A stretch of DNA of 64,000 bases, taken from an uncultured Clostridia bacterium. GTDB lineage: Bacteria > Bacillota > Clostridia > TANB77 > CAG-508. This document shows, one piece after another, positions 41,339 through 58,817 of this stretch (positions are counted from its first letter, which is position 1; the number at the start of each line of letters is the position of its first letter). The notes beneath the pieces are model-generated. The model was not told where the DNA came from. It ran no database searches and saw only the letters and a program-made list of their open reading frames with translations. The position numbers and the translations under genes are program-made. The stretch is taken from NCBI GenBank assembly GCA_944392805.1, contig CALXXZ010000001.1, positions 1,084-65,083 of the forward strand, written 5' to 3'.

Positions 41339-42313
41339 CTAAATATTATTAAAGTATTTTTCTACTACTTCAAATAATTCTTCTTTATTATTTATATGAT
41401 TTATTTTATCTCTAAATGTGCTTGAATCTTTCATATTTTTTGTATACCAAGCAATATGTTTTCTCATTTCATTTAAAGCTACATTTTCTCCTTTTTCTTT
41501 TATATCAAGTTCTATATGTTCTTTTAAAATTTGATATTTTTCTTCTGCTGATGGTTTTTCTAATTTTTTTCCAGTTTCTAAATAATATTGTATCTGTTTA
41601 AATATCCATGGATTTCCCATTGAACCTCTACCTATCATTATTCCATCTACTCCAGTATATTCAAACATCTTCTTTGCACTTTCTTCATCTATTATATCAC
41701 CATTACCTATTACAGGAATTTTTACTGATTGTTTAACTTGTTTTATTATATCTAAGTCTGCTTTTCCTCCATAAAATTCATCTCTTGTTCTTCCATGTAT
41801 TGTTATTGCTGATATTCCATTTTTCTCTGCCATTTGTGCAAATTCACATGCTACAATATTTTGATTATTCCAACCTTTTCTTAATTTTAATGTTACTGGA
41901 ACTTTTGCATTTTCTACAACCTTTTTTATTATCTGTTCTGCTTTCTCGATATCTAATAATAATTTACTTCCATCTCCATTTTTTACTACTTTAGGAGCAG
42001 GACATCCCATATTTATATCTATTATATCAGCTATATCATTTAGATATTTTGTAGCATATCCCATTGTCTCTGGATCACTTCCGAATATTTGCATACTTAT
42101 TAGATGTTTTTCTCCATCCGTTTTTAAAAGTGTTTTCGTTTTTTCATCCCCATAAAATAATGCTTTAGAACTCACCATTTCTGTACACACTAGGCCTGGA
42201 TTAAACTTTTCCACTATAATTCTAAAAGGCAGGTCTGTGACACCTGCCATTGGAGCTAATATTAAATTATTTTCTAATTCTACATTTCCTATTTTCAATT
42301 TTTTTAAGTACAT
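41339..42313 (-). CDS. dusB: tRNA-dihydrouridine synthase
   Basis: LAPMAGVTDLPFR N-terminal motif and TIM-barrel FMN-binding pattern. Confidence 0.8.
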   Translation of the reverse strand: MYLKKLKIGNVELENNLILAPMAGVTDLPFRIIVEKFNPGLVCTEMVSSKALFYGDEKTKTLLKTDGEKHLISMQIFGSDPETMGYATKYLNDIADIIDINMGCPAPKVVKNGDGSKLLLDIEKAEQIIKKVVENAKVPVTLKLRKGWNNQNIVACEFAQMAEKNGISAITIHGRTRDEFYGGKADLDIIKQVKQSVKIPVIGNGDIIDEESAKKMFEYTGVDGIMIGRGSMGNPWIFKQIQYYLETGKKLEKPSAEEKYQILKEHIELDIKEKGENVALNEMRKHIAWYTKNMKDSSTFRDKINHINNKEELFEVVEKYFNNI

Positions 42314-42430
42314 TTAATTATCCTCCTAGAAATAGATATATAACTATTGATTAGTCAAAGACCCCCGACGAAAACCATAGATATGTTTTTGACAAGAAAT
42401 AGTTATATATCTATTTCTAGGTAAAATTAA

Positions 42431-48097: not shown

Positions 48098-49393
48098 TTA
48101 TACTTCTTCGTTTTTACACACCTTTACTTTCAATATTCTTTTGTCTTCATATTCTTCTATTTTAAATGTTAATTCTTTTGTTTCAATTACTGGATTTTCT
48201 TCTTCTGATGGAATTCTTCCTAATTCTTCTTGCAAGTATCCTGATAATGTATCATAATCTCCTTCTGGTATATTTGATTTTAATATTTTATTTACATCAT
48301 ATATTGGCATACTTCCTGAAATTATATATGTTTTGTCATCTATTTTTTCATATTCTTCTTCAATTTCATCATATTCATCAAATATATCTCCAACTATTTC
48401 TTCTAATATATCTTCCATTGTTACTAATCCTGCTGTTCCACCATATTCGTCTACAACTATTGCTATCTGCACTTTGTTTTTTTGCATTTCTTTGAATAAT
48501 TCATTTATTAATTTATTTTGTGATACAAAATATGCTTCTTTCATTATACTTTTTATTTTAAATGTCTTTTTATTAATATTTTTTATTAAGTCTTTTACAT
48601 ATAATATTCCTTTTATTTCATCTATTGTTTCATCATATACTGGTATTCTACTATGTTTACAATCATCTTTTATTATTTCTTCTAATAGTTCTCCTGCACT
48701 TGTATTTATATCTACAGCAAATATGTCTGTTCTATGTGTCATTATTTCTGATGCTGTTATATCATTAAATTCAAATACATTGTTTATATATTCTTTCTCA
48801 TCTTCTTCTATTGTTCCATTTTCTTCGCCTTGGTCTATCATCATTTTTATTTCTTCTTCAGTAACTATTTCTTCTTCATTTTCACTTACTCCAAATAGTT
48901 TTGATATTGCATTTGTTGTAACTGTTAAAAGTTTTACAAATGGTGCTGTTATTATTGATATTCCTCTTATTATTCCTATTGTTCCAAATGCAATTTTTTC
49001 ATAATTTTTCATTGCAAGTCTTTTTGGAACTAATTCTCCAAATATTAGTGTAAAAAATGATAATATTATTGTTATTATTACTATTGATATACTTTGCCAC
49101 ACTCCTACACCTATTGGCATTAGTTTATTTAATTCTGGTGCTAGCATGTCTGCAAATGTGTCTGATGCAAACGCACTTGATAAAAATCCTGCAAGTGTTA
49201 TACCAATTTGTATTGTTGCTAGAAATTTACTTGGCGTTTCTAGCATTTTTTGTATTTGTTTTGCTTTCTTGTTTCCTTCTTTTGCTTGCTTTTCAATTTT
49301 GTTGTCATTTAATGATATAAATGCGATTTCACTTGCTGCAAAAAATGCATTTAATGCTATCAATATTACTAAAACAAGTATTTGCATAATCAT
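48098..49393 (-). CDS. Hemolysin-family (TlyC/CorC) DUF21-CBS-CorC_HlyC membrane protein
   Basis: 431 aa; N-terminal TM DUF21, tandem CBS domains, C-terminal CorC domain. Confidence 0.75.
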   Translation of the reverse strand: MIMQILVLVILIALNAFFAASEIAFISLNDNKIEKQAKEGNKKAKQIQKMLETPSKFLATIQIGITLAGFLSSAFASDTFADMLAPELNKLMPIGVGVWQSISIVIITIILSFFTLIFGELVPKRLAMKNYEKIAFGTIGIIRGISIITAPFVKLLTVTTNAISKLFGVSENEEEIVTEEEIKMMIDQGEENGTIEEDEKEYINNVFEFNDITASEIMTHRTDIFAVDINTSAGELLEEIIKDDCKHSRIPVYDETIDEIKGILYVKDLIKNINKKTFKIKSIMKEAYFVSQNKLINELFKEMQKNKVQIAIVVDEYGGTAGLVTMEDILEEIVGDIFDEYDEIEEEYEKIDDKTYIISGSMPIYDVNKILKSNIPEGDYDTLSGYLQEELGRIPSEEENPVIETKELTFKIEEYEDKRILKVKVCKNEEV

Positions 49394-50334
49394 CCATTTA
49401 CTCCTTTATATTCTTGACGTCTATCTATTGCATAACTACTTCCAATTATAGATTTAGCCATATGTTTTACTTGGGCTCCAACTTCTCCTATTTCTAATAT
49501 GTTTGAAAATCTTCCTTTTTCGGCTATTACTGCTCCTATTGATATTGATGTTAATGAAAATTGTTCTATTATCCCTTTTCTATTTGCTACTTCTATAAAT
49601 CCTTTTTCTAAATCTTCTTCTGTGAAAAATCTTGTTACTTCTTTATCAAACATTGCTATTATTGTTTGACAAATATCATCTACCTCAATATCTGGTACTA
49701 TTGCTATAAAGTCATCTCCACCTATATGTCCTACAAATGAATTTTCACTATATTTATCATGTATACATTTTAATATAGTGTTTGCTGTAAATTCTATTAT
49801 TTCGTCTCCTTTTAGAAATCCGTATACATCATTATAAGCTTTGAAATTATCTAAGTCTAAATATAATACTGAAAATTCTTCTTTATTTGTTATTCTCTTT
49901 TTTAATTCTGCATGTATCTGTACATTTCCTGGTAATCCAGTTAATGCACTTATTCTTCTATTTATTGTTAATAATCTATTTAAGTTTTTTACTGTACAAT
50001 ATAAATAGTCTGTATCTACTGGTTTTTTTATATAATATTCTACTGATTCTCTCAATACTTCTAGTCTATGTTCTCTATCTGTATTTGAAGATACAACTAT
50101 TATTGGTGTTATTTTATTGTCTTCATCAGTTCTTATTCTTCTACATAGTTCTGTTACATCTATTCCAATTGCATCTTCATTTATTATTATTAAAAATGGT
50201 ATATTTTTTAATGCTTTGTCTATCTCGTTTGTTGATACCCCTATGAATTTGAATTCTTTATCATTTTTAAATAGTTCTCTGAATATTGGTAATGATGACG
50301 AATCATCATCTATTATATATACTTCTTGTGCCAT
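49390..50334 (-). CDS. Response regulator receiver-GGDEF diguanylate cyclase
   Basis: N-terminal receiver (IIDDD), C-terminal GGDEF with GGDDF active-site motif; 4-nt overlap with the downstream gene. Confidence 0.75.
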   Translation of the reverse strand: MAQEVYIIDDDSSSLPIFRELFKNDKEFKFIGVSTNEIDKALKNIPFLIIINEDAIGIDVTELCRRIRTDEDNKITPIIVVSSNTDREHRLEVLRESVEYYIKKPVDTDYLYCTVKNLNRLLTINRRISALTGLPGNVQIHAELKKRITNKEEFSVLYLDLDNFKAYNDVYGFLKGDEIIEFTANTILKCIHDKYSENSFVGHIGGDDFIAIVPDIEVDDICQTIIAMFDKEVTRFFTEEDLEKGFIEVANRKGIIEQFSLTSISIGAVIAEKGRFSNILEIGEVGAQVKHMAKSIIGSSYAIDRRQEYKGVNG

Positions 50335-50347
50335 ATTTTCTCTCCTA

Positions 50348-51295
50348 TTAATTTACAAATTTTGCTCCTCTTGTTTTTTCTATTCCACTTCTATTTTTTA
50401 CTACTACTTTTAATCTGTTTTCTCCTGCTACCATTTCAACTTCTCCCTTATATGTTTTGTCATTTACTTCTACTGTTTGTGGAGTTCCATCATTTAATGT
50501 TAATTCTACTGTTGCAATTTGATCTTCATCTGTTGCTTCTATTATAAATCCTACTTTTCCATTACTTAAGTATGCTGCTGAAATTGATATTGTTGGTTCT
50601 GTTGCTCCTACTACTTGTTGTATTTTTGATGCTTTTTTTCCGTTTATATCTACTACTTCTATTGTTAATGTATGTGGTCCCATTGGTGCTGTTATTATTC
50701 CTTCATATTCTTTTGCAGAGACTTGTATTTCTTGGTTTTCTCCATTGTCCCAATTGTATGTTATATAATCTATTTCTGTTTCACTTGTTGATATTATTTT
50801 TATACCATTTGATACTGCTTCTAATTCTATTGTTGGTATATTTGAAACAGTATATTGTTTGCTATATTTTACTTTTTGCCCATTTTCTTCTGTTACTTCT
50901 AGTGTTAATGTATTTGTTCCTCCTAATAATTCAATTGTTTCTGTTAATTGTTTTTGATTGTTTCCATTTATTGTTGTTGCTTCTTCTGCATTCCACCAAT
51001 ATTCTAATTTTGTTATTCCTCTTATATGATTTACTTTAATTTCTAATGTATTATTATCATCATCTCTTACTATGTCTATTGTTGGTTTTGCACTTGCTTC
51101 TACTGTTTCATTAATTTTTTCTTTTGAATATATACTTCCTATTATTATACATATTCCTAGAATTATTATACTTAATGCATATATTATTACTATTGTTTTT
51201 TTACTTAATGGATTTTTTTCTTTTTTTACTTTTGGCATCTTTTGATTTTTATATACTCTATCATTTTCTCCGCCTGTTACTAAAATCTGGTTCAC
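50348..51295 (-). CDS. Membrane-anchored protein with repeated Ig-like beta domains
   Basis: 315 aa; N-terminal TM then repeated ~90-aa segments (TLEIKV.., TLTLEV.., TLTIEV..). Confidence 0.45.
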   Translation of the reverse strand: MNQILVTGGENDRVYKNQKMPKVKKEKNPLSKKTIVIIYALSIIILGICIIIGSIYSKEKINETVEASAKPTIDIVRDDDNNTLEIKVNHIRGITKLEYWWNAEEATTINGNNQKQLTETIELLGGTNTLTLEVTEENGQKVKYSKQYTVSNIPTIELEAVSNGIKIISTSETEIDYITYNWDNGENQEIQVSAKEYEGIITAPMGPHTLTIEVVDINGKKASKIQQVVGATEPTISISAAYLSNGKVGFIIEATDEDQIATVELTLNDGTPQTVEVNDKTYKGEVEMVAGENRLKVVVKNRSGIEKTRGAKFVN

Positions 51296-51400: not shown

Positions 51401-54400
51401 TTATAATACAAACCTTTTAATTAATATAATTCCTACCAAAACTGTTACTAATAATCCTAATGTAAGCATGAAATATGTTTTTGTACTACCAGTTGCTACT
51501 GCTAATATTACTTGTGCTTCATCTATATCGTCTTCTCCTTCTTCTTGATTGTCTGGTGTTGAATCTCTATCTGGCACATCATATTCATTATCATCTTCTG
51601 ATATTTCTGCCACATTTGTTTTTAAGTTTAAGTTGTCTTCTCCATTTATCCATGTTAGTACAACTTCTACTATTGCACTTTCTCCTGGTTGTAGTAATGT
51701 TCCTTCTAGTTGTCTTGTAGATATTACATTATTTCCTTCATCTGTCCATTCTGGATTATCTTCTGCAACAAATTTTAATCCTTCTGGTACATAGTCTGTT
51801 ATTTCTGTTGCATATCCTGGAATATCTCCTTCATTTGTTATTTTTATTCCAAATCCGAATTTTACTGTTACTTCATCTAGTTTTTTTCTATGTAATTCTA
51901 CTTTTACTACTGGTTCTGGTACTTCTGTTCCATCATATCCTGTTTCTGTGATTTTTTCTACTCCATCTTCGATTACTATTGCTTTTGTTACATATTTTAA
52001 TAATGCTAAATCAAAATATTCTACTTTTACATTTTCTATGTCTTGGTCATCTTCTCCTTCATTCCACTCATCTGGTTCTGAGTCTTTATCTTTTATAGGG
52101 TTTCCTTCTTCATCTGTGTCATCTGATATTTGTGCATGGTTTGTTATTATATATTCATTTGAATTTGGGTCTTTTACTTTAAATGCTATTTTTATGTCTT
52201 TATAATGTAGTATTGTTCCATCAAATGCTTCTATTAAGTTGTCTTCTCCATTTTCTTTTGATAGATAATTTGTTTTTACTTTTACTGCTTCTTCTACATT
52301 TTCTGTTTCTTGGTCATTTTCGTCATACATTTTCCACATATATTCAACATTTGTTGAATCTTCTGGTAAATATTCTAGGAATTCTGGTATATCATCTGTT
52401 ATTTCACTTGCATATCCTGATATTTCTCCTTCATTATATATTCTTAATGTATATATAACTACATCATCAACATGTACTAATAATGGTTCTTTTGTATGTT
52501 CATATCTTATTTGCCCATTTTCATATTTTGCTTGTGGCTCTCTATCTGTAACAGGTCTATCTTTTACTTGTGTTATGAATTTTCTTAATGCTAAATCAAA
52601 TTCTTTTACATATACTTTTTCGAAGTCATCATCATCTTCGTTTCCTGGTACATATGGATTGTTTTCTTCATCTTGTTTATATCCTGGCAAATCTTTATCT
52701 TCTGGTATGTCTTCTTCTACATTGTTAGAACTTGAGTCTACATCTTCTGGCACTATTGTTTCACCATATTTATATTCTGATATTTCTGCTATATTTGTAA
52801 TTCTTTCATCAGGTATAGCATTTTCTGATATTTTACATTCTATCTGAATATCCTCATAATCTAATGTTGTTCCATTAAATGCATCTATTTCTTTATCTGT
52901 TAAATATTTAGTTGTAGCAAGTCTACCATCTTCTGATATCTGCCATTGATATCTGGTATTTATTTCACTATCAGCAACAAATTCCAAATATGGTGGTAAA
53001 TAATCTTTTACCTCGCTTGCATAACCATCAATTTCTCCTTCATTATATACTCTAATTGTGTATATTACTGTGTCTCCAACTTTTAATGCTACTGGTTTTT
53101 TAGAATGATTATATATTGCTGTTGTATCTGTTTTATTTACTAATGGACTTACATCTACTACTGGCTCTCTGTTTTGTGCCGTTTCATTTACTTGTGCTAT
53201 AAATTTTCTTAAACTTAAGTCAAATGTTTTTACATATAATTTTTCAAAGTCATCATCATCTTGTTCTCCTTTATAATAGTAATCACTATCTGTTAAATCA
53301 TCTTTATTATCTGTATGTCCTTTATAATCTTCCATGTTATCTTTATTTACATCTGGTGCATTTTCTGGTTCTGAATCTCTATCTACTGCTACAACATTAT
53401 CTTCTGTATCATATGCCCCGCTTATCCATGCTACATTTGTTAATATATTTTTGTCTCCTGCTTGTGGTTTATGTATTACTTTACATTGTAATTCTATTGT
53501 TTCATAATCTAGTTTTCCAGTTTCATATGCTTGTAAATCTTTTGGTGTTCCTGCTATATCAAATGTTATTTTGTTTGTTGTTGTGTCATATGTTACATTA
53601 TATGTATTTTTATCTGCTCCTGTAGAGTCTTTTGATGTTACTGTACTACTTGGTATATATATTAATCCAGTTGGCAATTGGTCTATTATTTGATTTGCAT
53701 ATCCTGTTTTTTCTCCTTCATTATATATTGTTATTGAATATGTTACTATATCATTTTCTTGAACATATACAGGATCTTTTTTATGATTGTATGTTGCTGT
53801 TGTTTCTGTTTGTAATGTATCTTCTGATATATTTGGTACTCTTTGTGGTAATTTTAAATTTGATAATTCTACTCCATTTATTTCTGTTATATATTTTCTT
53901 AATGCTAAATCAAATATTTTTACTTCTTCTGGTGCATGTGTATTTGTTGCTTTAAATCCAACTGTTGCTGTTCCTGATATTTCTACTTCATATCCTTCTG
54001 GTACATCATTTTCTATTACTTCATATACAATGTCTACTCCATCTTGTTTTTTTGGTAAATCTGTAAATGTATGTGTCCAGTTATTGCCTTCATCTAATGT
54101 TACAGTTTCTTTTACTTCTTTATTTGCAAGTAAACTTACACTTACTGATTCTGGTCTGATTCCATCTTGGTTATTTGCATCATCCCATACTTTTGTTACT
54201 GAAACTGATGTTAAGTCTGTTTCATGTGTATTTACTACTGTAAATCCATCTGTTGCATTTCCTTCAATACTTACTACATATCCTTCTGGAACATTTTTTT
54301 CTTGTACAATATATGTAATAGGATTTCCTCCTGATTTTAATGGTAAGTTTTCAAATGTATATTTCCATCCATTGCCTTCATTTAGTGTTACTGTTTCTTT

Positions 54401-57400
54401 TTCAACTCCGTTTGCAAGTAATGTTACATCTACTGAATCTGGTCTTAATCCATCTTGATTGTTATTATCTGACCAAACCTTAGTTACTGATATTTGTGTA
54501 ATTTCTGGTGTATGTTTATTTGTTATTATATATCCTGTTTCTGCATCTCCTGTTATTTCATTTGTATAACCTTCTGGTATGGTTTCTTCTACTGTATATT
54601 CTATTGGTTGTCCATTTGCTTTTACTGGTAAGTTTTCAAATGTATACTCCCATCCGTTTTCAGCATTTAATTCTACTGGATTTTTTGTTATTATAACTCC
54701 ATTTGCTTTTAATTCTACAAATATAGAGGTTGGTCTTATTCCATCTTGATTTTCTGCATCATCCCATACTTTACTTACATGTACTTGTGTTTCTTCTGGT
54801 GTATATGTGTTTGTTATTATATATCCTGTTTCTGCATCTCCTGTTATTTCTACTGTATATCCTGTTGGAACTTGAACTTCTTCTACTTCATAATTTATTA
54901 GATTACCATTTTTATATTTTGGTAAGTCTGTGAATTTTCCTGTCCAACCATTTTGTTCATTTAATGTTACTGTTTCTTTTTCTGCTCCATTTGCTAATAA
55001 TGTTACACTTACTGATGTTGGCCTTTTTCCATCTTGATTATTTGTATCTTCCCACACTTTTGTTACTGTTACACTTGTTTGTGGTTGTAAAATTAGCTTT
55101 TCGAAATCATCATCATCTTGTTCACCTTTGTAATAGTATTCATCATCTGTTAAATCATCTTTATTATCAGTATGTCCTTTATAATCTTCCATATTGTCTT
55201 TGTCTACATCTGGTGCATTTTCTGGCTCAGAGTCTCTATCTATTGCTACTTTATCTTCTTCTGTATCATATGCCCCGCTTATCCATGCTACATTTGTTAA
55301 TATTTTATCTGTCGTTTCACTTGGTACTTCTGTTACTACACATTGTATTTCTATTGTTTCATAATCTAAGTTTCCAACTTCATATGCTTGTAAATCTTTT
55401 GGTGTACCTTGTATATCAAATGTTATTTTGTTTGTTGATGGTTCATATGTTACTTTATATGTATTTTTGTCTGCTCCTGCTGAGTCTTTTGATGTTACTG
55501 TACTTCCTGGATTATATATTAGTCCTGTTGGTAGTTGGTCTATTATTTGACTTGCGTATCCTGATTTTTCTCCTTCATTATATATAGTTATTTTATATGT
55601 TACTATATCATCTGTTTCTACTGATACTGGGTCTTTTCTATGTTTATATGTTGCTGTTGTTCCTGTTTGTAATGCGTTTTCTTCTATTTGTGGTATTCTA
55701 TTGTTTATATCAGTTTGGTTTACTTTTGTTATATATTTTCTTAAACTCAAGTCAAATATTTTATGTGTATTTGTTATTGTATAATCATTTTTTTCATTTT
55801 CTGTTATTTGTGCTTCATATCCTTCTGGTACTACTTCTTCTATTGTATATACTATTTCTACACCTTCATCTCTATATTTTGGTAAATCTTTAAATGAGCC
55901 TGACCAATTATTATTTTGGTTTAATGTTAATGTTTTTCCTTCAACTTTATTTCCATCTGCTAATAAATTTACTGTTACCTGTTGTGGACGTATTTTATCT
56001 AAATTATCATGGTCATTCCATATTTTATTTACTTTTACTTCAGTAGTTTCTGGTGTATATGTATTTTGAATTGTAAAATTATTTTTTGAGTTTGTTACTA
56101 CATTTTCTGTATATCCTGTTGGAACTGTTTCTTCTTTAACAGTATATACAATTTCTTTTCCTGCTTTATATTTTGGTAAATTTGTAAATGTATATGACCA
56201 ATCTGTACTAGATGTTATTGTTATTGTTTGTCCATCAACTTTTTCTCCATCTGCATATAAACTAATTTGTATTGATGTTGGTCTTTTTCCATCTTGATTA
56301 TTTGAATCTATCCATTCTTTGTTTACTTCTACTTGTACAACTTCTGGTGTGTGTGAATTTGTAATTATATATCCTGTATCAGCTGTTCCTGATGACTCTG
56401 ATGTATAATTTGGTACTTGTTTTTCTGTTACAGTATATTCTATTTTTGTTCCATTTTGATATTTTGGTAAATTTTCAAATGTGTGGCTCCATCCATTTGA
56501 TTCATTTAATGTTGCTGTATCTACTAGATTTTCTCCATTTTTTAGTTCTACTTGTATTGATGTTGGTCGTATTCCATCTTGATTATTTGTATCATTCCAT
56601 TTTTTATTTACTGTTACATCTGTTATTTCTGGTGTATGACTATTTATAATTGTAAATGTTCCTGTTGGATTTTCTACTATTTGTTTTTGATATCCTGTTG
56701 GTACTTGTGCTTCTTCTACTGTATATTTTATATCTGCACCATTTTCATCCTTTTTCATTAGTCCTGTAAATGTGTATGTCCATTTATTTGCTTCATTTAA
56801 TGTTGCTCTTTCTACTTCTGTACTTCCATTTTTTAATATTACTTCTATTGATGATGGTCTCATTCCATCTTGATTGTTGCTATCTTGCCATTGTTTTATT
56901 ACTGTTATCTCTGTTTCTTCTAATTTAGCAGTTAATCCTACTGTTTCTTCATGTGGGTTTAACTCTAAATCTGCAACTGGCTGTTCTGCTTCTAATGTTA
57001 TTGTTGTTCCATTATCTGTTCCTTTTAACCATAATGTTTTTGTTGTTGTGTTATATGAAGTTTTTAATTCTATATTTACTTCATTTCCTAAATTACTTGG
57101 TATTGATATATATATATCTTGTCCAACTAATTTTTCTATGTTTTGTTCTTTTAATACTGTTCCTGAACTATTTGTAAATTTATATTTTGATGAATTTATT
57201 TCAGTTCCATCTCCACTTGTTACTTTTAATTCTATACTGTATTGTAATTCATTGTTTTTATCTATTCTTATTGGTCCTACTATATTATTATTACCTTTTC
57301 TTATAATCTGTAATTGATATTTTCCACTTTCATCTGTTGATAATCCTGTTGTATTTACATTTATTGGCTTACCGATTTTATAATTATTTTCTTGTGTATA

Positions 57401-58228
57401 GTATTTTGCATTGTTTATAGCTGAATCTATTAAATAATTATACAATATTCTAGCTTGTTCTTCTCTATCCTCTCCACCGTTTGCTATTTCTGATAATTGT
57501 GTATATCTTATACCATCTGTAGTCACAGTTAACCAATCATATAATGATTTTTTGTCAAATTCATTATCTCCATCTAATTTTGCATTCATGAAATACCATA
57601 TTACTGCTTGTTGTACTGCTTTTATATCACTGTCAGTTAGTACTGTATTATATTCATAAATTGTTACTTGGTCAGAATAATCATATCCATCTACTGGCTC
57701 ATAATAATATACATCATATTCATCATCATATTCTATTCCTATTTTTTCTAATAATTTGTCTTTATCTGAACTTCCAGGAATATAACTATTATCTAATACC
57801 CACAATAGTTCTCTGTAATAACCATTTGGATCTAAAATTTTTGCTACTATATCATCTGGTGTTCCTTGTGATGGGTTTCCAAGTAATTGTATTAATTTAT
57901 CTCTATCTTCTTGTAAATCAAATGATAAATTATATCCTACAATATTATCTACATTTATTTCCCATGATTCACCATATTCGCCTTTTAAACAATATAATTG
58001 TCTCTGCGCAACGCTTTCATCTCCTCTATTTCCTGAATCATAGTTTCTCAAATTCCATAATGTTTTACCACCATTATCTGGCCTTCCTATTGAATACCCC
58101 ATTCCGTCTTTGTGTGTAGCATTAATTCCTATGTATAATACTTCGTTTCCCGCAAAACTTACTAGATTGAATATTAGGTATACTACTAATAGTAATATTA
58201 CTCCTATAATAAGCACTTTTTTCTTCAT
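51401..58228 (-). CDS. Giant surface adhesin (2275 aa): thioester-domain-like N-terminus, multiple DUF11-type and CnaB-type repeat domains, C-terminal TM anchor
   Basis: Signal peptide; N-domain with LYCLKGEYG (Cys) and VQQAVIWYF (Gln) resembling TED motifs; about 10 CnaB repeats (KVWDDANNQDGIRP...); DUF11-like repeats (FDLALRKYITEINGV...TTATYNHKKDP); C-terminal VILAVATGSTKTYF + hydrophobic helix + KRFVL. Confidence 0.75.
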   Translation of the reverse strand: MKKKVLIIGVILLLVVYLIFNLVSFAGNEVLYIGINATHKDGMGYSIGRPDNGGKTLWNLRNYDSGNRGDESVAQRQLYCLKGEYGESWEINVDNIVGYNLSFDLQEDRDKLIQLLGNPSQGTPDDIVAKILDPNGYYRELLWVLDNSYIPGSSDKDKLLEKIGIEYDDEYDVYYYEPVDGYDYSDQVTIYEYNTVLTDSDIKAVQQAVIWYFMNAKLDGDNEFDKKSLYDWLTVTTDGIRYTQLSEIANGGEDREEQARILYNYLIDSAINNAKYYTQENNYKIGKPINVNTTGLSTDESGKYQLQIIRKGNNNIVGPIRIDKNNELQYSIELKVTSGDGTEINSSKYKFTNSSGTVLKEQNIEKLVGQDIYISIPSNLGNEVNIELKTSYNTTTKTLWLKGTDNGTTITLEAEQPVADLELNPHEETVGLTAKLEETEITVIKQWQDSNNQDGMRPSSIEVILKNGSTEVERATLNEANKWTYTFTGLMKKDENGADIKYTVEEAQVPTGYQKQIVENPTGTFTIINSHTPEITDVTVNKKWNDTNNQDGIRPTSIQVELKNGENLVDTATLNESNGWSHTFENLPKYQNGTKIEYTVTEKQVPNYTSESSGTADTGYIITNSHTPEVVQVEVNKEWIDSNNQDGKRPTSIQISLYADGEKVDGQTITITSSTDWSYTFTNLPKYKAGKEIVYTVKEETVPTGYTENVVTNSKNNFTIQNTYTPETTEVKVNKIWNDHDNLDKIRPQQVTVNLLADGNKVEGKTLTLNQNNNWSGSFKDLPKYRDEGVEIVYTIEEVVPEGYEAQITENEKNDYTITNTHKIFDLSLRKYITKVNQTDINNRIPQIEENALQTGTTATYKHRKDPVSVETDDIVTYKITIYNEGEKSGYASQIIDQLPTGLIYNPGSTVTSKDSAGADKNTYKVTYEPSTNKITFDIQGTPKDLQAYEVGNLDYETIEIQCVVTEVPSETTDKILTNVAWISGAYDTEEDKVAIDRDSEPENAPDVDKDNMEDYKGHTDNKDDLTDDEYYYKGEQDDDDFEKLILQPQTSVTVTKVWEDTNNQDGKRPTSVSVTLLANGAEKETVTLNEQNGWTGKFTDLPKYKNGNLINYEVEEVQVPTGYTVEITGDAETGYIITNTYTPEETQVHVSKVWDDAENQDGIRPTSIFVELKANGVIITKNPVELNAENGWEYTFENLPVKANGQPIEYTVEETIPEGYTNEITGDAETGYIITNKHTPEITQISVTKVWSDNNNQDGLRPDSVDVTLLANGVEKETVTLNEGNGWKYTFENLPLKSGGNPITYIVQEKNVPEGYVVSIEGNATDGFTVVNTHETDLTSVSVTKVWDDANNQDGIRPESVSVSLLANKEVKETVTLDEGNNWTHTFTDLPKKQDGVDIVYEVIENDVPEGYEVEISGTATVGFKATNTHAPEEVKIFDLALRKYITEINGVELSNLKLPQRVPNISEDTLQTETTATYNHKKDPVYVQENDIVTYSITIYNEGEKTGYANQIIDQLPTGLIYIPSSTVTSKDSTGADKNTYNVTYDTTTNKITFDIAGTPKDLQAYETGKLDYETIELQCKVIHKPQAGDKNILTNVAWISGAYDTEDNVVAVDRDSEPENAPDVNKDNMEDYKGHTDNKDDLTDSDYYYKGEQDDDDFEKLYVKTFDLSLRKFIAQVNETAQNREPVVDVSPLVNKTDTTAIYNHSKKPVALKVGDTVIYTIRVYNEGEIDGYASEVKDYLPPYLEFVADSEINTRYQWQISEDGRLATTKYLTDKEIDAFNGTTLDYEDIQIECKISENAIPDERITNIAEISEYKYGETIVPEDVDSSSNNVEEDIPEDKDLPGYKQDEENNPYVPGNEDDDDFEKVYVKEFDLALRKFITQVKDRPVTDREPQAKYENGQIRYEHTKEPLLVHVDDVVIYTLRIYNEGEISGYASEITDDIPEFLEYLPEDSTNVEYMWKMYDENDQETENVEEAVKVKTNYLSKENGEDNLIEAFDGTILHYKDIKIAFKVKDPNSNEYIITNHAQISDDTDEEGNPIKDKDSEPDEWNEGEDDQDIENVKVEYFDLALLKYVTKAIVIEDGVEKITETGYDGTEVPEPVVKVELHRKKLDEVTVKFGFGIKITNEGDIPGYATEITDYVPEGLKFVAEDNPEWTDEGNNVISTRQLEGTLLQPGESAIVEVVLTWINGEDNLNLKTNVAEISEDDNEYDVPDRDSTPDNQEEGEDDIDEAQVILAVATGSTKTYFMLTLGLLVTVLVGIILIKRFVL

Positions 58229-58264
58229 TTGACACCCTTCCTTTGTATCTAATTTTCCAACTTA

Positions 58265-58293
58265 ATTATATAATTATCGACAAAAAAAATCAA
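58265..58293 (-). promoter_or_regulatory. sigmaA promoter of giant adhesin gene 1
   Basis: TTGATT (rc of 58288-93), 17 nt, TATAAT (rc of 58265-70), then AAGGAAGGGTG RBS. Confidence 0.5.
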
Positions 58294-58329
58294 TGTTTAT
58301 TTTTACTAATTTTTAATATTTAAAAAAAT

Positions 58330-58772
58330 GTTACAATTCACATCCTGTATTTGAGTAGGGTGGGGGTGCTATGCCTTATTTTATGAACTTTTCGGCTCAA
58401 TACGATATTTAAGAATTTGTAATATAGTTTATTGCGTCTCTTTCACTCAGGCTCAACTCCTTGTATATTCATTACGAATAAATGACGAATGTGATTGGAG
58501 AATTATTAGAAACTCTTAAATAATTTTATGGAAAATGTTCACGTTGAGCGTAGCGAGGACTAAGTGAAAGGGTGCCATAAAATTATTTTAGAGTTTCTTA
58601 TAATTTGTATTGAGCCGAGGAATTTATAAGAAATGAATATACAAGGAGTTGCCCGTGAACATCCCTCAATAAATTATTTAACAAATTCTAAAACATCTCC
58701 AATCACATTCAAAGTTCATAAAATAAGGCATAGCACCCCCACCCTACTCAAATACAGGATGTGAATTGTAAC
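58330..58772. repeat. ~443-bp structured element with perfect 61-bp terminal inverted repeats (MITE-like), GC-richer than its surroundings
   Basis: Left arm GTTACAATTCACATCCTGTATTTGAGTAGGGTGGGGGTGCTATGCCTTATTTTATGAACTT (58330-58390) equals the rc of the right arm (58712-58772); the interior has nested, rearranged inverted copies. Confidence 0.65.
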
Positions 58773-58780
58773 AAAAAAGA

Positions 58781-58806
58781 TAAGAAACCTTTTCTAGTTT
58801 CTTACC
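58781..58806 (-). terminator. Hairpin terminator after giant adhesin gene 2
   Basis: TAAGAAAC..GTTTCTTA stem then T6 on the minus strand, immediately before the IR element. Confidence 0.5.
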
Positions 58807-58817
58807 TTTTCATATTA

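What the first reader, a model, noticed from the sequence alone, without database searches (positions are those of the whole stretch)
58330..58772. 443-bp palindromic element with perfect 61-bp terminal inverted repeats between the two adhesin genes
The 61-nt termini are exact reverse complements. The interior is GC-richer than the flanks and is built from nested, reshuffled inverted copies of shorter modules, such as TTCGGCTCAATAC / GTATTGAGCCGAGG and CCTTGTATATTCAT / ATGAATATACAAGG. It sits exactly between the terminator of adhesin gene 2 and the promoter of adhesin gene 1, flanked by A-runs. Candidate identities are a MITE-like non-autonomous mobile element or another cruciform-forming element that could promote recombination between the paralogous adhesin genes.
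Basis: seen in the sequence. Interest (0 to 1): 0.65.

Follow-up and report, generated by a model that had tools for sequence, protein, structure and literature searches.

The report
Orphan palindromic insertion between two adhesin genes
A 445-bp non-coding DNA palindrome with perfect 63-bp ends was inserted between the terminator of one surface-adhesin gene and the promoter of the next in an uncultured gut Clostridia bacterium; it looks like a small parasitic mobile element rather than a native switch, but only one copy could be found.

Summary
The perfect arms are 63 nt, not 61 (58329-58391 and 58711-58773). The whole 445-bp element is an imperfect palindrome with 77% self-complementarity and a folding z-score of -20 to -25.

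The new evidence is comparative. The closest related genome (L013) has an exact empty site. Seven further loci from relatives have the same terminator followed 15-25 nt later by the same conserved promoter block, with nothing in between. The element is therefore a lineage-specific insertion at the end of the terminator's T-tract, about 70 bp upstream of the downstream adhesin's transcription start.

It has no coding capacity, no Rfam match, TGT...ACA termini and a possible 5-bp target duplication, which is ambiguous because the site is an A/T run. This fits a MITE-like foldback element.

No second copy and no partner transposase were found anywhere I could search. Multi-copy status is untested, because the rest of the genome is not available.

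An invertible promoter switch is unlikely. The interior is nearly symmetric, it carries no strong promoter, and the conserved promoter lies outside the element.

Swapped internal modules do suggest one past inversion inside the element.

Interest is modest.

The parts
58329..58391 (.). Left arm A (63 nt), begins TGTTACA
   Evidence: Perfect inverted repeat with 58711-58773
58711..58773 (.). Right arm A' (63 nt), ends TGTAACA
   Evidence: Perfect inverted repeat with 58329-58391
58392..58450 (+). Unit U1: head X (58392-58403, TCGGCTCAATAC), an AT-rich middle of the 'GAATTTGT' type, and tail CTCTTTCACTCAG
   Evidence: Unit dissection; the head and tail match U3, the middle matches U4
58451..58486 (+). 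Module M2a, with a 20-nt perfect core at 58454-58473
   Evidence: The 20-nt exact inverted repeat with 58632-58651
58487..58543 (+). Unit U2: head Y (58487-58500, GAATGTGATTGGAG), a middle of the 'GAAACTCT' type, and tail ATGTTCACG
   Evidence: 79% complementary to U4 (I3) and 83-94% complementary to U3 in the middle
58544..58559 (.). Central loop TTGAGCGTAGCGAGGA, the asymmetric centre of the palindrome
   Evidence: contains TAGCGA at 58551
58560..58618 (-). Unit U3 (X-type, read on the minus strand); X' lies at 58607-58618
   Evidence: I2
58619..58653 (-). Module M2b, with its core at 58632-58651
58654..58710 (-). Unit U4 (Y-type, read on the minus strand); Y' lies at 58697-58710
   Evidence: I3 and I7
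58324..58328 (.). Left copy of the possible 5-bp target-site duplication (AAAAA on the + strand)
   Evidence: Sequence. The flanks match for at most 5 nt. Removing the element and one copy restores a T7 tract, as seen in most of the relatives
58774..58778 (.). Right copy of the possible 5-bp target-site duplication (AAAAA); it is also the U-tract of the upstream terminator
58774..58811 (-). Intrinsic terminator of the upstream adhesin gene (A-tract, hairpin, T-tract); it is intact
   Evidence: RNA fold -16.9 kcal/mol, z = -5.4, comparable to the orthologous terminators in L013, L016 and L009
58265..58308 (-). Conserved promoter block of the downstream adhesin: TAGTAAAAATAAACA, then TTGATT (-35, 58293-58288), a 17-nt spacer, and TATAAT (-10, 58270-58265). 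It lies outside the element
   Evidence: Promoter scan 10/12; the block is conserved in L007, L009, L010-12, L013, L014, L016, L031 and L036
51401..58228 (-). Downstream adhesin gene (2275 aa): 8 Cna_B domains, DUF11 repeats and a C-terminal transmembrane anchor
58818..63347 (-). Upstream adhesin gene (1509 aa), a paralog of the downstream gene. About 95% amino-acid identity over the last ~400 residues in the displayed alignment; 66% over the 878-residue alignment as a whole

Best explanation
The element is a 445-bp non-coding foldback insertion. It is most likely a MITE-like non-autonomous transposable element, or the only copy visible here of such a family.

Shown: it landed at the end of the T-tract of the upstream adhesin's terminator, about 70 bp upstream of the inferred transcription start of the downstream adhesin's conserved promoter. 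It is not a native part of the locus, because related species join the terminator directly to the promoter block. The terminator and the promoter block are both intact, so the insertion sits in a permissive gap.

Inferred mechanism: a transposase supplied in trans recognises the two identical 63-bp ends (TGT...ACA) and inserts the element into an A/T run, duplicating 5 bp.

Inferred consequence: transcripts that read through the upstream terminator would fold into a hairpin with a stem of about 210 bp, immediately followed by U7. That structure could act as a second terminator or as an RNase III substrate that insulates the downstream promoter, as has been reported for transcribed MITEs.

Inferred history: the swapped X/Y modules are best explained by one past inversion of the inner segment between the 20-nt M2 cores.
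For: Insertion, which is shown:
- In the closest representative genome (L013; 81% amino-acid identity for the adhesin, 83-89% nucleotide identity), window 58200-58321 and window 58766-58860 are directly adjacent at L013 250/251.
- Loci L007, L009, L010-12, L014, L016, L031 and L036 also have the terminator followed by the conserved promoter block 15-25 nt later.

Properties shared with MITEs:
- The size is 445 bp and the terminal inverted repeats are 63 nt and perfect.
- The longest ORF is 43 aa. Peptides from all long open frames of the element have no homolog among 5.8 billion proteins.
- There is no Rfam family match.
- The flanks match for at most 5 nt, and reconstructing the empty site gives a T7 tract, as in most relatives.
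- GC is 30-37% against 16-25% in the neighbouring intergenic DNA.

Context from the literature:
- Prokaryotic MITEs are described as 50-800 bp, with TIRs of at least 10-15 bp and TSDs of 2-10 bp, and are mostly conserved only within a genus (PMC11602168). Absence from other species is therefore expected.
- RNase III cleavage and terminator-like behaviour of transcribed MITEs are reviewed in PMC10969869.

Structure: the hairpin is very stable, and a T7 run directly follows it on the gene strand.
Against: - No second copy was found in the window, in 46 related loci by blastn or by an nhmmer profile of the two halves, in GTDB representatives, in JGI metagenomes, in IMG/VR, or in plasmids and phages.
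- No transposase lies in the window, and no IS with matching ends was found.
- The target duplication lies in an A/T run, so it is uninformative.
- Ordinary transposition does not explain why the outer 63 nt are identical while the interior has diverged by about a quarter.
- The outermost 8 nt (TGTTACAA) loosely resemble native post-terminator sequence: GTTTACAA after the paralog and ATTTAGAA in L013. The exact boundary could therefore be off by a few bases.
- The proposed effects on transcription are untested.
Confidence: 0.5

Rival explanations
1. Relic of a larger element, deleted in place. An IS, transposon or other mobile element once inserted here and later lost its interior. What remains is its two ends as a single-copy scar that was never itself mobile.
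For: - The element is single-copy in everything searched.
- It is an insertion relative to the sister species.
- It has TGT...ACA ends and a possible 5-bp duplication.
Against: - The interior is itself palindromic right up to a 16-nt loop. A simple internal deletion of an IS would leave unrelated left and right subterminal sequences.
- No transposase remnant exists in any reading frame.
Confidence: 0.15
2. Invertible DNA switch (inverton). A recombinase flips the 319-bp interior between the 63-bp arms and thereby phase-varies the downstream adhesin.
For: - The inverted repeats are perfect and lie immediately upstream of a surface adhesin gene.
- A weak promoter-like site, TTGAAT-16-TAGAAT, lies at the A'/Y junction and points toward the gene. 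The mirror A/X junction has none.
- The swapped X/Y modules suggest that an inversion has happened inside the element.
Against: - The interior is 77% self-complementary, so flipping it changes little.
- Promoter-like hits are at chance level: 6 found against 4.2 +/- 1.9 expected, all 9/12 inside the element.
- The strongly conserved promoter (10/12) lies outside the element and is shared by relatives that lack the element.
- No invertase lies in the 64-kb window. The only recombinase is a prophage integrase 49 kb away.
- The two available assemblies show the same orientation.
- The arms are 2-4 times longer than the inverted repeats I recall for characterised invertons; this comparison rests on my own knowledge.
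Confidence: 0.1
3. Acquired cis-acting structure under selection. The palindrome would function as a giant bidirectional terminator or insulator, as an RNase III processing site, or as a protein-binding platform (repeated TTCAC/GTGAA motifs). It would be kept because it uncouples the two adhesin genes.
For: - The hairpin is followed by U7 on the gene strand.
- The arms, the X and Y heads and the M2 core are perfectly conserved while the rest has diverged, which hints at constraint or gene conversion.
- Six (A/T/G)TTCAC motifs plus two AATCAC variants are arranged symmetrically. I counted these by reading the sequence.
Against: - The native terminator is intact and as stable as those of relatives that manage without the element.
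- There is no conservation beyond one lineage.
- There is no Rfam match.
- The motif enrichment is mild and was not tested independently.
Confidence: 0.1
4. Palindrome formed in place. A foreign fragment of about 220 bp was inserted and then copied in inverted orientation, by a template switch or by hairpin-primed repair. The interior diverged later, or was mosaic from the start.
For: - The palindrome spans the whole length of the element.
- The outermost 8 nt resemble native flank.
Against: - A single duplication cannot give 100% identity over 63 nt alongside about 75% identity in the interior, with swapped modules, unless further events are added.
- No source sequence for the half-element was found.
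Confidence: 0.07
5. Assembly artefact.
For: - The window and L001 are metagenome-derived sequences.
- An inverted repeat longer than the assembler's k-mer leaves the orientation of the interior unresolved. This rests on my own knowledge of de Bruijn assemblers.
Against: - The element lies in the middle of long contigs, with syntenic flanks on both sides.
- It is identical in the window and in ENA scaffold_901, which differ by 3 SNPs elsewhere.
- The imperfect interior is not what fold-back artefacts look like.
Confidence: 0.02

Closest known systems
Bacterial MITEs that fold as RNA hairpins (Correia/NEMIS elements of Neisseria, ERIC/IRU of enterobacteria, RUP/BOX/SPRITE of S. pneumoniae)
   Same: They are small, non-coding and intergenic, and have terminal inverted repeats. 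They are often placed between a gene's 3' end and the next promoter. When co-transcribed, their transcripts fold into hairpins that are cut by RNase III or behave like terminators (PMC10969869).
   Different: Those families have tens to hundreds of copies per genome, TIRs of about 20-30 bp and lengths of about 100-160 bp. This element has one visible copy, 63-bp perfect TIRs and a length of 445 bp, and it shares no sequence with them.
E622 of Pseudomonas syringae (611-bp MITE)
   Same: It is a large MITE (611 bp; PMC10969869) associated with virulence or surface-interaction genes. From memory it also has unusually long TIRs; I did not verify that.
   Different: E622 has a known partner transposon and demonstrated mobility. 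Neither is known here.
Eukaryotic foldback (FB-type) transposons
   Same: Almost the whole element is one long inverted repeat built from sub-repeats around a short asymmetric centre.
   Different: They belong to a different domain of life and depend on different transposases. This is an analogy of architecture only.
Invertons / invertible promoter switches (for example the cwpV and flgB switches of Clostridioides difficile, or Bacteroides capsule promoters; from my own knowledge)
   Same: Inverted repeats bracket a few hundred bp directly upstream of a surface-protein gene in a gut Firmicute.
   Different: Known switches carry an asymmetric promoter or terminator, and the ones I recall have inverted repeats of about 15-45 bp. 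Here the interior is nearly symmetric, the conserved promoter lies outside, and relatives lack the element altogether.

Membership tests
MITE (non-autonomous class II element) | Small size (50-800 bp) and no coding capacity | tested here: met
   The element is 445 bp and its longest ORF is 43 aa. No protein homolog exists for any long open frame. Size criteria come from PMC11602168.
MITE (non-autonomous class II element) | Terminal inverted repeats of at least 10-15 bp | tested here: met
   The arms are 63 nt and 100% complementary.
MITE (non-autonomous class II element) | Target-site duplication of 2-10 bp | tested here: inconclusive
   AAAAA lies on both sides, with a maximum match of 5 nt. 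The site is an A/T run, so a match is expected by chance. The reconstructed empty site gives T7, as in most relatives.
MITE (non-autonomous class II element) | Presence/absence polymorphism with an identifiable empty site | tested here: met
   L013 joins the two flanks at positions 250/251. Seven further loci from relatives lack the element.
MITE (non-autonomous class II element) | Multiple copies in the genome | tested here: not met
   There is one copy in the 64-kb window and none in about 300 kb of relatives or in any public collection scanned. The rest of this genome could not be searched, so this is 'not met in the data available', not a whole-genome result.
MITE (non-autonomous class II element) | A partner autonomous element with the same ends | tested here: not met
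   No transposase lies in the window. The terminal 19-mer and 22-mer are absent from IMG/VR and from JGI metagenomes.
Inverton (invertible promoter or terminator switch) | Flanking inverted repeats | tested here: met
Inverton (invertible promoter or terminator switch) | Both orientations present in a population | not testable with these tools
   No reads are available. The two assemblies (window, L001/L006) show the same orientation.
Inverton (invertible promoter or terminator switch) | Asymmetric functional cargo, so that orientation matters | tested here: not met
   The interior is 77% self-complementary. Only chance-level 9/12 promoter-like sites lie inside it. The conserved promoter lies outside it.
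Inverton (invertible promoter or terminator switch) | An invertase gene nearby (common but not obligatory) | tested here: not met
   The only recombinase is a prophage integrase at 8572-9783, 49 kb away.
ssoA-type single-strand origin of rolling-circle plasmids | An RSB (TTATGCCGAGAAAATTT) in the stem and a CS-6 (TAGCGT) in the loop (PMC4598088) | tested here: not met
   The best RSB match is 12/17, and 22% of shuffles match as well. The loop has TAGCGA at 58551, and the RSB-like site lies on the wrong side of it. There is no Rep gene or plasmid context.
Any curated structured RNA (Rfam 15) | A covariance-model match | tested here: not met
   No match at E <= 1 in 57000-60000 on either strand.

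The most novel reading that the evidence does not exclude
The element could be a self-contained multi-site inversion module, a non-coding 'mini-shufflon'. Its interleaved perfect inverted repeats (A/A' 63 nt, X/X' 12 nt, Y/Y' 14 nt, M2/M2' 20 nt) would allow several DNA isomers upstream of an adhesin gene. It would also be mobile and would target the T-tract of intrinsic terminators. That would make it a transposable phase-variation cassette.
Probability: 0.07. Interest if true: 0.65.

Novelty: new member of a known kind. Interest (0 to 1): 0.3.

Why it matters
If it is mobile, it would define a new MITE/foldback family in a poorly known lineage of low-GC, uncultured gut Clostridia; the related MAG titles name Hadza, Nepalese ('Nepal') and 'BRZ' samples. 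It would also be an example of an element that targets the gap between a terminator and a promoter.

The practical point is that the element is not part of the conserved regulatory architecture of the adhesin locus. It should not be annotated as a phase-variation switch without read-level evidence.

The conserved promoter block shared by the relatives is probably the more informative regulatory feature of this locus.

Tried and rejected
- Rfam at a permissive threshold found nothing.
- Copy searches all found no second copy:
  - blastn-short against the window;
  - blastn and an nhmmer profile of the two halves against 46 loci plus the masked window;
  - exact 30-, 20-, 22-, 19- and 20-mers against GTDB representatives, JGI metagenomes and IMG/VR;
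  - distant blastn against plasmids and phages.
- Protein-space trick: ORF43 against 1.84 billion representatives gave one spurious hit with no alignment. A concatenate of all long open frames against 5.8 billion proteins gave nothing.
- Exact look-ups of the flanking adhesins returned only one other assembly, which is identical over the element.
- Single-strand origin idea (TAGCGA in the loop): the RSB match is at chance level.
- c-di-GMP or other riboswitch: no Rfam hit.
- Multiple transposase-binding repeats in each end, as in Tn7, Mu or IS21: only one weak 12-mer pair per half.
- Retron or DGR: no reverse transcriptase in the window.
- Type I toxin: the small ORFs are not toxin-like.
- A scan for comparable long inverted repeats in relatives' loci found none.

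Full report
**1. What is there**

The window has 27% GC. Two large paralogous surface-adhesin genes lie in tandem on the minus strand:
- The upstream gene is at 58818-63347 (1509 aa) and has DUF11 repeats.
- The downstream gene is at 51401-58228 (2275 aa) and has eight Cna_B domains plus DUF11.
- Both end in a transmembrane anchor.
- Their last ~400 residues are about 95% identical, and the 878-residue alignment as a whole is 66% identical.

Between the two genes, the repeat finder reports a 63-nt, 100% complementary inverted repeat at 58329-58391 and 58711-58773, with 319 nt between the arms. The arm occurs only at these two places in the window and in no shuffle.

Aligning the 445-bp element to its own reverse complement gives 77% identity over its whole length, with a centre near 58551. 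It folds as one long hairpin:
- as RNA, at -210 and -214 kcal/mol (z = -22 and -25);
- as DNA, at -128 kcal/mol (z = -20).

GC is 30-37% inside the element and 16-25% in the adjacent intergenic DNA.

**2. Internal anatomy**

Each half reads: arm A, unit, module M2, unit. There are four units of 57-59 nt.
- U1 (58392-58450) and U3 (58560-58618, read on the minus strand) share head X (TCGGCTCAATAC) and tail CTTTCACTnAG.
- U2 (58487-58543) and U4 (58654-58710, read on the minus strand) share head Y (GAATGTGATTGGAG) and tail ATGTTCACG.
- The AT-rich middles instead match the positional partner across the palindrome: U1 with U4, and U2 with U3.

Head and tail type is therefore swapped between the two halves, while the middles follow the palindrome. 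The simplest history is one inversion of the inner segment between the two M2 cores (58454-58473 and 58632-58651, 20 nt, perfect). Undoing that inversion gives one half made only of X-type units and the other made only of Y-type units. This is an inference from a single sequence.

There is no convincing set of repeated binding sites in each end.

**3. Surroundings**

- On the gene strand, the upstream adhesin ends in an intact A-tract/hairpin/T-tract terminator at 58811-58774. It folds at -16.9 kcal/mol, as stable as the orthologous terminators of relatives.
- Downstream of the element lies TTGATT-17-TATAAT (58293-58265; 10 of 12 matches), about 30 nt upstream of the start codon.
- Promoter-like hits inside the element are all 9/12 and at chance level: 6 found against 4.2 +/- 1.9 expected.
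- No ORF longer than 43 aa lies in the element.
- There is no Rfam match at E <= 1.
- The window otherwise holds core chromosomal genes: PolC, MinDE, RodA, a PBP, Ddl, PyrB and a GGDEF response regulator.
- It also holds the end of a prophage, whose integrase lies 49 kb away. There is no transposase or invertase.

**4. Comparative evidence, which decides the question**

An exact-protein look-up found one other assembly of essentially the same strain (ENA scaffold_901). It has 3 SNPs in 11.6 kb, and its element is identical and in the same orientation.

A profile of the adhesin N-terminal domain retrieved 34 loci from uncultured gut Clostridia MAGs. Four further homolog look-ups added six more loci.

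In the closest genome (BRZ_EF__bin101; loci L013 and L021; 83-89% nucleotide identity), the sequences flanking the element are contiguous. Window 58200-58321 aligns to L013 370-251, and window 58766-58860 aligns to L013 250-159.

The relatives L007, L009, L010-12, L013, L014, L016, L031 and L036 all show the upstream adhesin's terminator followed 15-25 nt later by a strikingly conserved block: TAGTAAAAATAAACATTG(A/C)TTTTTTTGTCGA..TATAAT. Only the window lineage has 445 bp wedged between the T-tract and that block.

The element is therefore a lineage-specific insertion about 70 bp upstream of the inferred transcription start. It leaves both the terminator and the promoter intact.

The flanks match for at most 5 nt (AAAAA on the + strand). 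Removing the element and one copy of that match restores a T7 tract, as in most relatives. Because the site is a homopolymer run, this is compatible with a 5-bp target duplication but does not prove one.

One caveat concerns the boundary. The outermost 8 nt (TGTTACAA) loosely resemble native post-terminator sequence, so the boundary could be off by a few bases.

**5. Is it mobile?**

Every search for a second copy failed:
- the window;
- about 300 kb of related loci, by blastn and by an nhmmer profile of the halves;
- GTDB species representatives;
- JGI metagenomes;
- IMG/VR;
- plasmids and phages;
- predicted proteins, in any frame.

No comparable long inverted repeats occur in relatives' loci.

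These negatives are weak for two reasons. This species itself appears to be absent from the DNA-searchable collections, since the best adhesin match is 81% amino-acid identity. MITE families are also usually genus-restricted (PMC11602168). The rest of this genome could not be reached, so copy number remains untested.

**6. Interpretation**

The best reading (about 0.5) is a MITE-like foldback element inserted into a permissive gap between a terminator and a promoter.
- Shown: the insertion, the terminal inverted repeats, the lack of coding capacity, and the intact neighbours.
- Inferred: mobilisation in trans, the 5-bp duplication, and any effect on transcription. One possible effect is a second terminator or an RNase III site made by the hairpin plus U7, as reported for Correia, ERIC and SPRITE elements (PMC10969869).

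Unexplained: the outer 63 nt are identical while the interior has diverged by about a quarter. Gene conversion or recombination between the arms, or constraint on the ends, would account for it.

An inverton is unlikely (about 0.1). The interior is nearly symmetric, it has no strong promoter, the conserved promoter lies outside it, relatives manage without it, and no invertase is nearby.

The other rivals are a relic deleted in place, a selected cis-acting structure, in-situ palindrome formation, and an assembly artefact. They are listed with their evidence in the rival explanations.

The ssoA idea, prompted by TAGCGA in the loop, fails the RSB test.

**7. Verdict**

The feature is real and non-random, and it is now shown to be an insertion. 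It is most likely a new MITE/foldback-type element, an orphan in current data, that sits in but does not belong to the conserved regulatory architecture of the adhesin locus. Interest is modest at 0.3. Read-level tests for inversion and a whole-genome copy count would settle its nature.

Noticed in passing
window 58265-58308 (minus strand); L007, L009, L010-12, L013, L014, L016, L031, L036: A ~45-nt non-coding block, TAGTAAAAATAAACATTGATTTTTTTGTCGA..TATAAT, lies upstream of the second adhesin gene. It is almost invariant across relatives whose adhesin N-termini are only 44-81% identical, so it is more conserved than the coding sequence. It is probably the promoter plus an UP element or a regulator-binding site.
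   Followed up: partly
window 51401-58228 and 58818-63347: The tandem adhesin paralogs are about 95% identical over the last ~400 residues, and their terminators are homologous, but their N-terminal and central regions have diverged. This is consistent with gene conversion at the 3' ends. One N-terminal homolog (P0014) is named by NCBI as a Cys-Gln thioester bond-forming surface protein.
   Followed up: partly
window 42325-42348 / 42398-42421: A perfect 24-nt inverted repeat with a 49-nt spacer lies in the 5' leader of the Dus (dihydrouridine synthase) gene at 41339-42313. The proximal arm abuts or overlaps the Shine-Dalgarno sequence. The spacer carries two outward-facing TTGACA/TTGACT hexamers. 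It could be an operator, a leader hairpin or a small invertible segment.
   Followed up: no
window 27532-27563 / 27681-27712: A 32-nt, 94% inverted repeat with a 117-nt spacer lies in the AT-rich intergenic region upstream of the ORF at 26586-27476.
   Followed up: no
window ~1-9800: This is the end of a prophage. It carries Siphovirus Gp157 (6142-6642), a CI/LexA-like repressor (7724-8419), which is bracketed by a 22-nt inverted repeat at 7324-7345 / 8437-8458, and a tyrosine integrase (8572-9783).
   Followed up: partly
window 35316-37198: An RloB-like protein and an AAA_21 ATPase (an OLD/abortive-infection-type defence gene pair) sit next to pyrB (34290-35204).
   Followed up: no
window 23135-26440: Five consecutive minus-strand ORFs (239, 159, 263, 237 and 159 aa) have no Pfam match. 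The alternating sizes suggest a duplicated gene pair.
   Followed up: no
window 49390-50334: A response regulator with a GGDEF output domain lies two genes downstream of the adhesin pair. The gene between them (50348-51295, 315 aa) has no Pfam match. The layout hints at c-di-GMP control of adhesion, but no c-di-GMP riboswitch was found near the adhesins.
   Followed up: no
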